Positions 4,121 to 56,311 of a DNA stretch of 64,000 bases are shown one piece after another. The number at the start of each line of letters is the position of its first letter. Within the stretch, counting starts at the first letter, position 1. A model generated the notes under the pieces. The model had not been told where the DNA came from. It worked only from the letters and a program-made list of their open reading frames with translations, and did no database searches. The DNA is taken from assembly GCA_949290865.1 (NCBI GenBank), contig CASETM010000074.1, forward strand, positions 26,998-90,997. Reading direction: 5' to 3'. The position numbers and the translations under genes are program-made. Origin of the DNA: an uncultured Bacillota bacterium. GTDB taxonomy: Bacteria; Bacillota_I; Bacilli_A; Erysipelotrichales; Coprobacillaceae.

Positions 4121-4149
4121 TTGCTATTAAAAACAAATTATAGTATAAT
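4121..4149 (+). promoter_or_regulatory. Sigma-A promoter of the riboswitch/antiporter transcript
   Basis: TTGCTA(4121-4126)-17 nt-TATAAT(4144-4149). Confidence 0.75.
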
Positions 4150-4155
4150 CCCATC

Positions 4156-4245
4156 GGGAATGAAGTTCTCCCTAAACAAAAGATTAAACTGCGTGATAGC
4201 TGATGACTTCTGTGTTTTCAATATGCACAGAGCATCAGTTTTTTT
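4156..4245 (+). ncRNA. Fluoride riboswitch (crcB motif) with overlapping intrinsic terminator
   Basis: GGGAATGAAGTTCTCCC...TAAACTGC...GCTGATGACTTCTG matches the fluoride aptamer pattern. Pseudoknot GAAGT(4162-4166)/ACTTC(4206-4210). Terminator CTGATG..TTCTGTG/CACAGAGCATCAG plus T7 (4200-4245) overlaps the 3' half of the aptamer. Confidence 0.9.
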
Positions 4246-15858: not shown

Positions 15859-15934
15859 TGGTCTCCCCGCACGGGATCGAACCGTGGACCCTCTGATTAA
15901 GAGTCAGATGCTCTGCCAGCTGAGCTACGGAGAG
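15859..15934 (-). tRNA. tRNA-Lys (anticodon CTT)
   Basis: 76-nt cloverleaf; TCTGA-CTCTTAA-TCAGA anticodon arm; GGTTCGATCC; encoded CCA. Confidence 0.97.
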
Positions 15935-17616: not shown

Positions 17617-17707
17617 GGAGACATACTCAAGAGGCTGAAGAGGCGCCCCTGCTAAGGGTGTAGGTCGGGAAACTGGCGCGAGGGTTCAAATCCCTCTGTC
17701 TCCGCCA
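17617..17707 (+). tRNA. tRNA-Ser (anticodon GCT)
   Basis: 91 nt with long variable arm; CGCCC-CTGCTAA-GGGTG; GGTTCAAATCC; CCA. Confidence 0.97.
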
Positions 17708-17717
17708 TTAGTTGTAT

Positions 17718-17794
17718 GGTCTGGTAGTTCAGTTGGTTAGAATGCCGCCCTGTCACGGCGGAGGTCGCGGGTTCGAGTCCCGTCCAGACCGCCA
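17718..17794 (+). tRNA. tRNA-Asp (anticodon GTC)
   Basis: 77-nt cloverleaf; CCGCC-CTGTCAC-GGCGG; GGTTCGAGTCC; CCA. Confidence 0.97.
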
Positions 17795-17795
17795 A

Positions 17796-17829
17796 TAAAA
17801 AAATAACTGCGTAAGCAGTTTTTTATTTT
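17796..17829. terminator. Bidirectional terminator after the tRNAs
   Basis: AAAAAAATAACTGC-GTAA-GCAGTTTTTTATTTT. Confidence 0.75.
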
Positions 17830-18356
17830 GCGTGTTTATCGATATAGGCTTTCATGATTGCAATCATTGTTTTTGAATCATTGATTTTTTTATCTATTAC
17901 CATCTGATAAGCCTGATCAACTGGAACATAGAGAACATCAATAAATTCATCATCATCTCCGCTCAGGGGATTTTCTTTTTTATAGAGGCCCTTTGCTTCA
18001 TAGAGATGGATGATTTCATCGCAATAGCCAGGAGTAGGGAAGATATCTGTGATCAGTTCCAGATCTTTACAGCTGTATCCAGTTTCTTCTTCAAGTTCAC
18101 GTTTAGCAGCTTTTTTAATTTCCTCATCAAACTCTAGTTTGCCAGCTGGTATTTCTATTGTATCCTGCTGATAGGCATAACGATACTGCTTGACCAGAAT
18201 GATCTTATCATCAACAGTCGCCAGGATTCCTACACCACCATGATGTCTGACAATTTCTCTATCAGCAAGCATACCGTTTTGACATTCAACCTGATCTTTG
18301 TAGACAGTAATGACATTTCCTGTAAACAGCACTTCACTTGATACTTTTTTTTCCAT
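17823..18356 (-). CDS. nudF: ADP-ribose pyrophosphatase (Nudix)
   Basis: Nudix box PAGKLE..E....AAKRELEEETGY; TPGYCDE; INDSKT. Own promoter TTTACA(18403-18398)-17-TATACT(18380-18375). Confidence 0.88.
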   Translation of the reverse strand: MEKKVSSEVLFTGNVITVYKDQVECQNGMLADREIVRHHGGVGILATVDDKIILVKQYRYAYQQDTIEIPAGKLEFDEEIKKAAKRELEEETGYSCKDLELITDIFPTPGYCDEIIHLYEAKGLYKKENPLSGDDDEFIDVLYVPVDQAYQMVIDKKINDSKTMIAIMKAYIDKHAK

Positions 18357-18404
18357 ATATTTCACCTCAATTCAAGTATAGGTTTTATTTTTTTTGTTGT
18401 AAAC

Positions 18405-18497
18405 AAAAAAGTATGCGGGGGTGCATACTTTTTCAAAATATTATTCACGTAAGGATGATAATAGGGGGTACGTTAAAGTGAATGTGCATCACCTAAC
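18405..18497 (-). ncRNA. Candidate small regulatory RNA (~95 nt)
   Basis: Extended -10 TGcTATAAT (hexamer 18509-18504) with TTTACA 16 nt upstream; C-rich hairpin; terminator GTATGC-ACCCCC-GCATAC-T6 (18428-18405). The downstream nudF has its own promoter. Confidence 0.6.
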
Positions 18498-18595
18498 AAT
18501 TAAATTATAGCACATCCATCCAAAATGTAAAGGGTTTCATAAAAAAATAAAATGAAGTTTTATGACAATATGTTATAATGATGGAGGTGAAAAAA

Positions 18596-19576
18596 ATGAA
18601 AAGAATAGAAATTAGAAAAAATGATGCCAATCAGCGAATCGATAAATATCTCAAAAAACTATTATGCAATGCACCAGTAAATTTGATATATAAAATGCTG
18701 CGTAATAAAGATATCAAAATCAATGGCAAAAAAGTCAATGAAAGATATATTCTTCAGGAACATGATATATTAGAGATGTTTCTCTATGAGGATAAATTCC
18801 AGCTGTATACTCAAGAAAAGGATATTTATTCATTGAAGAAGGAATTTAAGGTTTTATATGAAGATGAACAGATTCTTGTTGTCGATAAGCCTGCCGGTTT
18901 ACTGGTCCATGGTGATGCCAATGAAAATATCAATACGCTTGATCACCAGGTTCTCAGTTATCTTAAAGAAAAAGGCGAACTTGATCTTAGTCGTGAAAAT
19001 ACATTTATGCCTGGACCTGTACATCGTCTTGACCGCAATACCAGCGGAATTGTTATTTTTGGCAAGACCCTCAATGCTCTCCAGGATCTTAATGAGATGA
19101 TGAAGAAAAGACATCATATTGAAAAAACATATATTACGATATGTTCAGGATGTCTAAGAGAAAGAAAAGAACTCGTTGGCTATGTCAAGAAAATAGATAA
19201 TGAAGATCGTGTTCAGTTTGTCAGAAAAGATGATCCTGACGCTCTTTATATGAAAACAATTGTTGAACCGTTGAAATGGAATGCTCAGTTTTCACTAGTC
19301 ATGGTTCAGATCGTTACTGGCAGAATGCATCAGATCAGGATCCATCTTTCTAGTATCGGACATCCAGTCATTGGTGATAGGAAGTATGGTGATTTTCAGC
19401 TGAACAGACAGCTGAAACAGAAATTTGGTTTGAATTATCAGCTGCTGCATGCCAGCAGGATCTGTTTCTGTGATCCTTTTGGATCGCTACGCTATCTTAA
19501 AGGAAAAGAAATTGTCTGCGATATTCCTGATCAGTTCAGACAAATCGAAAAAAGTTTAATTGAAAGCGTTTTCTAA
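18596..19576 (+). CDS. RluA-family 23S rRNA pseudouridine synthase (RluC/D-like, with S4 domain)
   Basis: NDANQRIDKYL, VDKPAGLLVH, VHRLDRNTSG, TGRMHQIR, HPVIGD.KYG. Confidence 0.92.
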   Translation: MKRIEIRKNDANQRIDKYLKKLLCNAPVNLIYKMLRNKDIKINGKKVNERYILQEHDILEMFLYEDKFQLYTQEKDIYSLKKEFKVLYEDEQILVVDKPAGLLVHGDANENINTLDHQVLSYLKEKGELDLSRENTFMPGPVHRLDRNTSGIVIFGKTLNALQDLNEMMKKRHHIEKTYITICSGCLRERKELVGYVKKIDNEDRVQFVRKDDPDALYMKTIVEPLKWNAQFSLVMVQIVTGRMHQIRIHLSSIGHPVIGDRKYGDFQLNRQLKQKFGLNYQLLHASRICFCDPFGSLRYLKGKEIVCDIPDQFRQIEKSLIESVF

Positions 19577-24147: not shown

Positions 24148-24154
24148 GCAGTTA

Positions 24155-24358
24155 AATCGTTGATGAAGATGAGTACCTTAAGGAATATCATAGAGAGAAC
24201 ATGGCTGGTGGAAATGTTTATAGGACTTATGGGAAAGCTACTTCGGAGAGTAACTCATCATTACCGTGAAACTGCGTTAAGGTCAATTAAGGGCATGTCT
24301 TTGACATGAACTAGGATGGTACCGCGCTTAAGTCGTTCCTAGAAAAGGACGACTTTTT
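24155..24358 (+). promoter_or_regulatory. T-box riboswitch, Ala specifier (GCT)
   Basis: Stem I with AGTA/GAA, AGAGA and GCTGGTGGAA boxes; specifier GAA-a-GCT-A-CTTC (24237-24239); T-box AACTAGGATGGTACCGCG (24309-24326); terminator 24330-24358. Confidence 0.9.
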
Positions 24359-56031: not shown

Positions 56032-56089
56032 AATATTATTGACAACATGTCAGGAATATTTATAATAATTTTTGTATATCATAATTAAA

Positions 56090-56311
56090 CTCAATGAAAA
56101 AGAGAGTAGTTAAATCATTTCATAGCAGCGAGTCAATGTTGGTGGAAGATTGACATGAAAGTTTTAATGAACCGCACTTTGGAGAGGATGGTCTGAAAAA
56201 AGTAGGGTCATCAGTACGCTGTCTTTACCAGCAAGAGGGAATATGTTTAACATATTAAAAAGAGTGGTACCGCGGATAAATTCGTCTCTTAGCTTAGCTA
56301 AGAGATTTTTT
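56090..56311 (+). promoter_or_regulatory. T-box riboswitch, predicted Arg specifier (CGC)
   Basis: AAAG-AGAGTA ... GAA-c-CGC-A-CTTT (CGC at 56173-56175) aligns exactly with the alaS leader GAA-a-GCT-A-CTTC; T-box AAGAGTGGTACCGCG (56260-56274); terminator TCTCTTAGC-TTA-GCTAAGAGA-T6 (56285-56311). Confidence 0.88.

What the first reader, a model, noticed from the sequence alone, without database searches (positions are those of the whole stretch)
18405..18531. Unannotated stand-alone small RNA with a C-rich loop between nudF and the RluA gene
The minus strand has TTTACA-16-TGcTATAAT, then about 95 nt, then a clean terminator (GTATGC/GCATAC + T6). nudF has a separate promoter downstream, so this is not a leader. 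The body folds into a 9-bp stem (6-nt bulge) with a 17-nt loop CCCCCUAUUAUCAUCCU. Exposed C-rich loops are the hallmark of anti-Shine-Dalgarno sRNAs in Firmicutes (RoxS/RsaE, FsrA). A 14-codon ORF (MHIHFNVPPIIILT) lies inside, but its SD directly abuts the ATG.
Basis: partly seen in the sequence, partly recalled or inferred. Interest (0 to 1): 0.6.

Follow-up and report, generated by a model that had tools for sequence, protein, structure and literature searches.

The report
Conserved C-rich small RNA gene of Coprobacillaceae
A roughly 93-base stand-alone small RNA gene with a 21-base invariant core is kept across a whole family of gut bacteria (Coprobacillaceae), matches no catalogued RNA family, and most likely silences genes by pairing with G-rich ribosome-binding sites.

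Summary
The promoter, terminator and C-rich body are real, and the gene is conserved.

- **Distribution:** it is single-copy. My covariance model finds it in 53 of 74 sampled Coprobacillaceae genomes (Faecalibacillus, Thomasclavelia, Coprobacillus, Massilimicrobiota, Stoquefichus, Longibaculum, Beduini and others). It gives 1 weak hit in 75 genomes of the sister family.
- **Conserved parts:** the -35 box, the extended -10 box, an upstream half-palindrome, a 21-nt core (CCCCUAUUAUCAYCCUWAYGU) and a C5 terminator loop are near-invariant. The promoter spacer and the hairpin stems vary.
- **Structure:** hairpin 1 and the terminator covary. The supported fold has three hairpins, with C-runs in a linker, a loop and the terminator loop.
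- **Not a nudF leader:** other genes, some convergent, lie downstream in several genera. Genera without the RNA have the rluA-type gene and nudF 73-92 bp apart.
- **Not coding:** the 14-codon ORF exists only here and in the closest relative.
- **Not a known family:** no Rfam family fits (RsaE 14 bits against a cut-off of 79). It shares only the block ACAUACCCC(U) with the RsaE consensus.
- **Mechanism:** anti-Shine-Dalgarno action is inferred. Citrate synthase is the only partly conserved target candidate; three others failed the conservation test.
- **Classification:** a new sRNA family of a known kind.

The parts
18526..18539 (-). Promoter box TGAAA-CCCT-TTACA: an imperfect palindrome (TGWAA-N4-TTACA) whose right half is the -35 hexamer TTTACA (18531-18526)
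   Evidence: Across 43 distinct homologous promoters TTTACA is invariant (43/43). The upstream TGWAASCC is kept in 41-43 of 43, while the spacer columns vary freely. In the own genome the 14-mer occurs at only one other place.
18504..18512 (-). Extended -10 element TGcTATAAT
   Evidence: Promoter scan scores 11 of 12 with TG. T is kept in 43/43, G in 41/43 and TATAAT in 42-43/43 homologues.
18405..18497 (-). Predicted small RNA, about 93 nt (start inferred at G18497, 7 nt after the -10 box; end at the last T of the T-run)
   Evidence: Fold z-score -5.7. Single copy in the own genome. The covariance model scores 99.4 bits here and 60-104 bits in 47 other Coprobacillaceae genomes. DNA matches in relatives stop at the end of the T-run. 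The 5' and 3' ends are inferred, not mapped.
18472..18497 (-). Hairpin 1 (GUUAGGUGA / UCAC-U-UUAAC, 9 bp with one bulge)
   Evidence: Predicted in every homologue folded alone. 3 of the 5 core pairs show changes on both sides and 96.6% of cells pair.
18464..18471 (-). Unpaired linker GUACCCCC carrying the first C-run (C5 here, 4-7 C in relatives)
   Evidence: Unpaired probability at least 0.9. The C-run is present in all 42 homologues.
18447..18467 (-). Invariant 21-nt core CCCCUAUUAUCAYCCUWAYGU
   Evidence: Invariant or two-state columns across 42 sequences from more than 20 genera. An exact-pattern scan of 185,579 species genomes returned 42 loci. 40 lie in Coprobacillaceae-type genomes; the others are one mislabelled contig and one chance hit.
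18439..18463 (-). Hairpin 2 (UAUUAUCAU / GUG-A-AUAAUA) with apical loop CCUUAC
   Evidence: Predicted in 40 of 42 homologues. The 3' arm AUAAUA is kept at a variable distance (bulge of 1-7 nt) from GUG. The 5' arm never varies, so there is no covariation evidence; the top three pairs are 96.7% paired.
18405..18433 (-). Intrinsic terminator, 11-12 bp stem plus U6, with loop ACCCCC (18422-18417)
   Evidence: All 10 modelled pairs show compensatory double changes. The loop stays (A/U/C)C5 even where the stem sequence is replaced, as in L011, L060, L061 and L063.
18375..18403 (-). Separate promoter-like site of nudF (TTTACA-17-TATACT), directly after the terminator
   Evidence: Scores 10 of 12. 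In most other genera a TGnTATAAT follows the T-run at once.
17823..18356 (-). NUDIX hydrolase gene (nudF-like), downstream neighbour. Listed as context, not part of the RNA.
   Evidence: Pfam NUDIX, E = 9e-20. It is downstream of the RNA in most but not all genera.
18596..19576 (+). RluA-family pseudouridine synthase gene with S4 domain, the divergent neighbour and the constant partner of the RNA gene
   Evidence: Pfam PseudoU_synth_2, E = 3e-32, plus S4. It is divergent and 111-187 nt from the core in all but one locus whose sequence reached it; L034 has an inserted gene between.
18445..18489 (-). 14-codon ORF MHIHFNVPPIIILT (rejected as a gene)
   Evidence: Present only in L002 (this genome) and L003 (closest relative). 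Other genera have no ATG there or read a different frame.

Best explanation
This is an independently transcribed, trans-acting regulatory small RNA of about 93 nt.

- **Transcription:** it has its own sigma-A promoter. A conserved half-palindrome overlapping the -35 box is probably an operator for an unknown regulator. It has its own intrinsic terminator.
- **Fold:** three hairpins that leave three C-rich stretches single-stranded: a C4-7 run in the linker after hairpin 1, CCU in the loop of hairpin 2, and C5 in the terminator loop.
- **Proposed action:** these stretches, together with the invariant UAUUAUCAY next to the first run, pair with G-rich Shine-Dalgarno regions (GGGG/GGGGG, AAGGRUGAU) of several mRNAs. 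This blocks 30S binding and probably lowers mRNA stability, without Hfq.
- **Best target candidate:** citrate synthase.

Shown here: the gene, its conservation, its independence from nudF, the structure of hairpin 1 and the terminator, and the predicted exposure of the C-runs.

Inferred: transcription itself, pairing with ribosome-binding sites, the identity of targets, and the regulator.
For: Gene and promoter:
- Promoter 11 of 12 with TG.
- The -35 box, -10 box and upstream box are invariant while the spacer drifts.
- Fold z-score -5.7.
- One copy per genome in 53 of 74 Coprobacillaceae genomes, against 1 weak hit in 75 genomes of the sister family.
- 21-nt invariant core.

Structure:
- The three-hairpin model has 96.2% of cells paired and 13 of 18 pairs with double changes; 0 of 500 shuffles reach this.
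- The terminator loop stays C5 although its stem is replaced in several genera.
- The C-runs are predicted unpaired.

Independence from nudF:
- Downstream genes are convergent in L009, L010 and L048, and unrelated in L041, L056, L060 and L061.
- Genera without the RNA have the rluA-type gene and nudF 73-92 bp apart.

Mechanism:
- No Hfq gene was found in the 99%-complete genome.
- The citrate synthase ribosome-binding site is UAGGGGGUGU here. It gives 10 bp with the linker, and ranks 8th of 2870 start regions for the linker and 3rd for the terminator loop.
- That site is a G4-5 run in 10 of 16 genera with the RNA, but in 1 of 4 without.
Against: - No expression data are available, so the transcript is predicted only.
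- The best in-silico target (a YbaK-like gene, -23.6 kcal/mol), a GltD-like gene and the two pyruvate kinases lose their site in close relatives, or keep a G-run in genera without the RNA too.
- The citrate synthase correlation is weak and its data points are not phylogenetically independent.
- The RNA is present in genomes where citrate synthase was not found: G016 (87% complete) and G081 (95% complete).
- No site with 14 or more of 16 complementary bases recurs anywhere in 61 family genomes.
- A 21-nt invariant stretch is longer than a typical seed and could instead be a protein-binding site.
- Hairpin 2 would have to open for its 5' arm to pair.
Confidence: 0.6

Rival explanations
1. The RNA acts through a protein rather than through mRNA pairing. 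The invariant 21-nt core and C-rich loops would be a binding or sequestration site for an RNA-binding protein. One candidate is the neighbouring RluA-family pseudouridine synthase, which is always next to it.
For: - The core is invariant over 21 nt, longer than usual seeds.
- No conserved strongly complementary target was found.
- Three of four target candidates failed the conservation test.
- Linkage to the rluA-type gene is kept in nearly all loci.
Against: - Linkage may be simple inheritance. Genera without the RNA keep the same rluA-type gene.
- C-runs in unpaired positions are the signature of pairing sRNAs in Firmicutes (PMC4409812).
- RsaE is also highly conserved in sequence between Bacillus and Staphylococcus.
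Confidence: 0.15
2. It is a very diverged orthologue of RsaE/RoxS. Under this reading it is the same gene family by descent, remodelled in structure, rather than a separate family.
For: - It shares the block ACAUACCCC(U) with the RsaE consensus, in the same order relative to GUGAA...UCAC and ACGUGAA blocks.
- My model's weak hits on 37 Bacillales loci fall on the RsaE gene in 4 of 10 cases (L280 at 21.3 bits; L309, L264, L274).
- No canonical RsaE was found in 101 Erysipelotrichales genomes, so there is no second claimant.
Against: - RsaE model score is 14.1 bits against a cut-off of 79, E = 2-8.
- Other genera give no hit at E < 1.
- The duplicated CCCCUUUGUU motif is absent.
- The RsaE-type long hairpin (UCAC with downstream GUGA) is not supported.
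- The synteny is different.
- The reciprocal hits are not independent, because I fetched the RsaE loci with a pattern that contains CATACCCCT.
Confidence: 0.1
3. It is a promoter-terminator module whose function lies in the act of transcription. It would insulate or interfere with the overlapping nudF and rluA-type promoters, and the RNA product itself would not matter.
For: - The terminator T-run is followed immediately by the -10 box of the next gene in most genera.
- The promoter lies about 65 bp from the start of the rluA-type gene.
Against: - The most conserved part is the RNA body (the 21-nt core and the C5 loop), not only the signals.
- Genera without the module run the same two genes back to back.
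Confidence: 0.07
4. It is a cis-acting leader or attenuator that controls nudF by conditional termination.
For: - It lies upstream of nudF on the same strand in most genera.
- A weak match to Thr_leader, 14.7 bits against a cut-off of 55.
Against: - nudF is not downstream in L009, L010, L041, L048, L056, L060 and L061, and in three of these the next gene is convergent.
- nudF has its own promoter-like site.
- I saw no conserved anti-terminator alternative.
- There is no conserved leader peptide.
Confidence: 0.05
5. It encodes the 14-residue peptide MHIHFNVPPIIILT.
For: The ORF exists at 18489-18445, with AGGUG directly before the ATG.
Against: - It is found only in this genome and its closest relative.
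- Four homologues have no ATG-started ORF at all.
- The C-run length (4-7) shifts the frame between genera.
- The Shine-Dalgarno sequence abuts the ATG.
Confidence: 0.02

Closest known systems
RsaE / RoxS (Rfam RF01820), the C-rich sRNA of Bacillales and Staphylococcaceae that represses TCA-cycle and redox genes
   Same: - Size of about 90-115 nt, with its own promoter and terminator.
- Several C-runs in unpaired positions that can pair with G-rich Shine-Dalgarno sequences (PMC4409812).
- A shared block ACAUACCCC(U).
- A possible citrate synthase target; citZ is affected by RsaE/RoxS in both model species.
- Works in organisms where Hfq is not needed or, as here, not found.
   Different: - Scores 14 bits against a cut-off of 79.
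- No duplicated CCCCUUUGUU.
- The fold differs: the C-run is in a linker, not in the loop of a long hairpin.
- The neighbours differ (the rluA-type gene and nudF).
- The promoter carries a TGWAA-N4-TTACA box. No ResD-type site could be assessed.
- The taxon range does not overlap in my samples: 0 of 101 Erysipelotrichales genomes have RsaE.
FsrA (Rfam RF02273), the Fur-regulated C-rich sRNA of Bacillus subtilis
   Same: - C-rich single-stranded regions.
- A terminator whose loop is ACCCCC-like. The only local match of the FsrA model is to this terminator (16.1 bits, model positions 49-83).
   Different: - 16 bits against a cut-off of 80, over the terminator only.
- No Fur-box-like site (up to 3 mismatches) anywhere in 18400-18600.
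- The body is unrelated.
Other C-rich pairing sRNAs: the S. aureus Rsa family with UCCC motifs and B. subtilis CsfG (named in PMC4409812), and actinobacterial 6C RNA (PMC6486639)
   Same: The functional principle is the same: C-rich loops pair with G-rich mRNA sites, and for 6C this is reported as independent of RNA chaperones (title and abstract seen).
   Different: None of their Rfam models reached E of 10 or better on this locus. Sequences and taxa are unrelated.

Membership tests
RsaE/RoxS (RF01820) | Covariance-model score at or above the Rfam gathering score (79 bits) | tested here: not met
   14.1 bits, E = 2.2-7.6 on the window. No hit at E < 1 in six homologous loci from other genera. 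No RsaE elsewhere in the own genome.
RsaE/RoxS (RF01820) | Two copies of the 10-nt motif CCCCUUUGUU (CRR1 and CRR3; PMC4409812) | tested here: not met
   The sequence has one CCCCCUAUUAU plus a C5 terminator loop and no CCCCUUUGUU. Only ACAUACCCC(U) is shared with the consensus.
RsaE/RoxS (RF01820) | Long 5' hairpin in which UCAC pairs with a downstream GUGA and encloses the C-rich loop (Rfam consensus structure) | tested here: not met
UCAC instead pairs with the upstream GUGA in hairpin 1.
RsaE/RoxS (RF01820) | Multiple C-rich regions in single-stranded positions | tested here: met
   The linker C5, the loop CCUUAC and the terminator loop ACCCCC all have unpaired probability of at least 0.9. 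They are conserved in 42 homologues.
RsaE/RoxS (RF01820) | ResD/SrrA-dependent promoter with a conserved site near -65 | not testable with these tools
   No model of the ResD site was available. Only about 65 bp separate the -35 box from the start of the divergent rluA-type gene.
FsrA (RF02273) | Model score at or above 80 bits, and a Fur box at the promoter | tested here: not met
   16.1 bits, terminator only. No Fur-box match with up to 3 mismatches in 18400-18600.
C-rich anti-Shine-Dalgarno sRNAs of Firmicutes (functional class) | Independent transcription unit not tied to one downstream gene | tested here: met
   Conserved promoter and terminator. The downstream gene varies and is sometimes convergent. 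The unit is cleanly absent in some genera. Transcription itself has not been observed.
C-rich anti-Shine-Dalgarno sRNAs of Firmicutes (functional class) | Conserved complementarity to the ribosome-binding site of conserved target mRNAs | tested here: inconclusive
   Citrate synthase has a G-run ribosome-binding site in 10 of 16 genera with the RNA and 1 of 4 without. The GltD-like, YbaK-like and pyruvate kinase sites are not conserved or not specific.
C-rich anti-Shine-Dalgarno sRNAs of Firmicutes (functional class) | Repression of translation initiation shown by toeprint or reporter with compensatory mutations | not testable with these tools
   This needs experiments.

The most novel reading that the evidence does not exclude
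This RNA is the counterpart of RsaE/RoxS in Erysipelotrichales, either a remote homologue or a convergent analogue. It would be an Hfq-independent C-rich riboregulator, switched by an unknown repressor at the TGWAA-N4-TTACA box. It would gate citrate synthase, and so the entry into the oxidative branch that feeds 2-oxoglutarate and glutamate, in strictly anaerobic gut Firmicutes.
Probability: 0.2. Interest if true: 0.65.

Novelty: new member of a known kind. Interest (0 to 1): 0.5.

Why it matters
- **First handle on riboregulation in this family.** My searches of the held paper library found no described regulatory RNA for Coprobacillaceae, which include Thomasclavelia ramosa, T. spiroformis, Faecalibacillus and Coprobacillus. 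A single-copy, family-wide sRNA with an invariant core is a clean starting point.
- **Ready for curation.** The alignment A1 and model R1 could seed a new RNA family entry.
- **A test case for sRNA evolution.** If it controls central carbon metabolism as RsaE/RoxS does, that would be either deep conservation or convergent evolution of C-rich control of the TCA entry point across Bacilli.
- **Ordinary in kind.** C-rich pairing sRNAs are well known, so a specialist would be interested rather than surprised.

Tried and rejected
1. **Known RNA families.** Rfam at gathering thresholds, and at E up to 10, on the locus and on six homologous loci gave only noise.
The 9-bp stem with a 17-nt loop is rejected by pair counts.
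3. **nudF leader.** Rejected by synteny.
4. **Small ORF.** Rejected.
5. **Long antisense target.** There is no exact complement of 11 nt or more with a meaningful context in the own genome. No recurrent site of 14 or more of 16 bases appears in 61 family genomes.
6. **Genome-wide duplex ranking of 2870 start regions**. The top hits were a YbaK-like gene, a GltD-like gene and an rpiR-like gene. The YbaK-like site is unique to this genome. The GltD-like G-run also occurs in genera without the RNA. The G5 sites of both pyruvate kinases are unique to this genome. The rpiR-like gene was not tested for conservation.
7. **pgk,** a shared RsaE/RoxS-affected gene, has an ordinary GGAGG site here.
9. 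**cre/CcpA reading of the promoter box.** It fits 13 of 14 consensus positions by eye but lacks the central CG. The exact box occurs at only one other place in the genome. This was left open.
10. **Fur box.** None at the locus.
11. **Fremin & Bhatt 2021 catalogue.** The core motif was not found in the held supplements, but only 200 of 408 files are held, so this is not an exclusion.
12. **Fetching RsaE from the window's class.** No RsaE was found in 150 genomes, so I took RsaE loci from a pattern scan instead.

Full report
**What is in the sequence.** The region lies between a NUDIX hydrolase gene (17823-18356, minus strand) and a divergent RluA-family pseudouridine synthase gene with an S4 domain (18596-19576, plus strand). 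On the minus strand it holds:
- TTTACA (18531-18526), a 16-nt spacer, then TGcTATAAT (18512-18504). This is the best promoter-like site in the surrounding 2 kb, at 11 of 12 with TG.
- About 93 nt of RNA body.
- A hairpin AAAAAGUAUGC / ACCCCC / GCAUACUUUUUU ending at 18405.
- A second promoter-like site (TTTACA-17-TATACT, 18403-18375) directly after it, then the nudF ribosome-binding site.

The RNA folds much better than shuffled versions (z = -5.7).

**Conservation.**
- The locus is single-copy in its genome.
- DNA search of 40 relatives found it in every same-genus genome and in many other genera of the family. Several matches stop at the last T of the terminator.
- An exact-pattern scan of one genome per species (185,579 species) with the core CCCCTATTATCAYCCTWAYRT returned 42 loci. 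Forty are from genomes named Thomasclavelia, Faecalibacillus, Coprobacillus, Massilimicrobiota, Stoquefichus, Longibaculum, Beduini, Fimiplasma, or unnamed Erysipelotrichaceae or Coprobacillaceae. One is a contig filed under Bacteroidaceae that is identical to a Faecalibacillus locus. One (Neobacillus) has no promoter or terminator around it and is a chance hit.
- A covariance model built from 42 distinct sequences found one copy each in 53 of 74 further genomes of the window's family. In the sister family it found a single weak hit (34.9 bits) in 75 genomes.
- The window's genome belongs to the GTDB genus that holds Faecalibacillus faecis and F. intestinalis. Loci L004 and L006, from same-genus genomes, are identical to the named loci L050 and L043.

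**Pattern of constraint.**
- Across 43 distinct promoters, TTTACA is kept in 43/43, the TG of the extended -10 box in 41-43/43, and TATAAT in 42-43/43.
- An upstream TGWAASCC is kept in 41-43/43. With the -35 box it forms TGWAA-N4-TTACA.
- The 16-17 nt spacer varies freely.
- In the RNA, 21 consecutive positions (window 18467-18447) are invariant or two-state.
- The terminator stem is replaced outright in several genera, yet its loop remains a run of C.

This is the pattern expected of a functional promoter, a functional RNA and sequence-specific single-stranded elements.

**Structure.**
- Folding each homologue alone gives the same architecture: hairpin 1, an unpaired linker ending in C4-7, hairpin 2 (UAUUAUCAY with GUG...AUAAUA, loop CCUWAC), an A-rich spacer, and the terminator with a C-rich loop.
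- On alignment A1 this model has 96.2% of cells paired and 13 of 18 pairs with changes on both sides. None of 500 shuffles and none of six slid registers come near it.
- The support comes from hairpin 1 and the terminator. The 5' arm of hairpin 2 never varies, so it can show no covariation. Its 3' arm AUAAUA is kept at a variable distance, which fits a stem with a bulge of variable size.
It is a local possibility in this genome only.
- In the supported fold the three C-rich stretches have unpaired probabilities of at least 0.9.

**Stand-alone gene, not a leader or a peptide gene.**
- The RNA gene is divergent from the rluA-type gene, at a nearly fixed distance, in all but one locus whose sequence reached it; L034 has an inserted gene between.
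- nudF is the next gene in most loci but not all. In L009, L010 and L048 the next gene is convergent. In L041, L056, L060 and L061 it is a different gene. In L017 and L032 nudF is 700 nt away.
- In three genera without the RNA, the rluA-type gene and nudF sit back to back, 73-92 bp apart, so the RNA gene comes and goes as a unit of about 150 bp.
- One genus (G020) keeps the promoter box and a C5-loop terminator but has a different body.
- The 14-codon ORF exists only in this genome and its closest relative. Other genera have no ATG or another frame, and the C-run length varies.

**Mechanism.**
- Exposed C-runs next to an invariant A/U-rich stretch, in a Firmicute with no Hfq gene found, point to direct pairing with G-rich ribosome-binding sites. 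This is the mechanism shown for RoxS/RsaE (PMC4409812). It is an inference here.
- I ranked 2870 crude start regions of the own genome against each exposed module and tested four candidates for conservation.
- Citrate synthase has UAGGGGGUGU here, giving 10 bp with the linker. It ranks 8th for the linker and 3rd for the terminator loop. It keeps a G4-5 run in 10 of 16 genera with the RNA, but has an ordinary GGAGG in 3 of 4 genera without. This is suggestive. The genera are not independent, and two genomes carry the RNA while no citrate synthase was found in them (G016, 87% complete; G081, 95% complete).
- The top-ranked YbaK-like gene, a GltD-like gene and both pyruvate kinases failed.
- No long complementary site recurs in the family.
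- So the class of mechanism is plausible, but the regulon is unknown.

**Comparison with known families.**
- No Rfam 15 family reaches its threshold. The best relevant scores are RsaE at 14.1 bits (cut-off 79) and FsrA at 16.1 bits (cut-off 80), the latter on the terminator only.
- The RsaE hallmark, a duplicated CCCCUUUGUU, is absent, and the RsaE-type long hairpin is not supported.
- The RsaE consensus and this family do share ACAUACCCC(U). My model's weak hits on 37 Bacillales loci coincide with the RsaE gene four times out of ten. This test is biased, because I fetched those loci with a pattern containing that block.
- RsaE itself was not found in 101 Erysipelotrichales genomes.
- I therefore file this RNA as working like RsaE/RoxS but not as a member. 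Remote common descent is neither shown nor excluded.
- Searches of the paper library found no description of an sRNA in this family. The held part of the Fremin & Bhatt catalogue does not contain the core motif, but most of its files are not held.

**Earlier notes of this scan.** A first-stage note on the same window (e1-5245924) proposed mazF as a target. In my ranking its start region is 33rd-42nd of 2870, which is not distinctive. I saw no note of this RNA on other DNA.

**Verdict.** This is a real, conserved, independently organised small RNA gene. It is a new family restricted to Coprobacillaceae, of the known kind of C-rich pairing sRNAs. Its mechanism and targets are still to be shown.

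Noticed in passing
L118-L167 (citrate synthase loci of the family); own genome G000:C100, upstream of 60446: A conserved palindrome TTGTATACAATTATACAA (or its core GTATACAAT) sits just upstream of the -10 box of citrate synthase. It is present in nearly all genera, with or without the sRNA. It is probably an operator for an unknown regulator.
   Followed up: no
window 18571-18598 (+), 18375-18356 (-), and relatives: The rluA-type gene, nudF, citrate synthase and the YbaK-like gene all carry TGnTATAAT only about 18-30 nt before the start codon. Their mRNAs would therefore start at or just before the ribosome-binding site, giving very short leaders.
   Followed up: no
L035 (CAVESC010000028.1) and L071 (JACJKV010000001.1): A contig filed as 'Bacteroidaceae bacterium' is identical over the sRNA locus to a Faecalibacillus genome, which suggests bin contamination. 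'Thomasclavelia spiroformis An567' is identical to a same-genus relative of the window, and that genus also holds Faecalibacillus faecis and F. intestinalis, so the name and the GTDB genus disagree.
   Followed up: partly
L251:1270-1510 (G020, genus g13): At the syntenic site this genome keeps the promoter box ATGAAAGCCTTTACA and a terminator with an AUCCCCC loop. The RNA body is different and the -10 box is weakened (TGTTATCAT). It is either a diverged sRNA with a new seed or a decaying gene.
   Followed up: partly
own genome, 48 start regions listed: 48 of 2874 crude start regions have GGGGG in the ribosome-binding region. They include citrate synthase, both pyruvate kinases, feoA, a GltD-like oxidoreductase, thymidine kinase and an ornithine/DAP decarboxylase. 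The G5 sites of the pyruvate kinases are not shared even with same-genus relatives.
   Followed up: partly
window 17617-17791 (+), 15862-15934 (-), 24151-24343 (+), 56085-56292 (+), 4147-4219 (+): Rfam at gathering thresholds finds three tRNAs, two T-box leaders and a fluoride riboswitch elsewhere in the window. None is connected with this locus.
   Followed up: no
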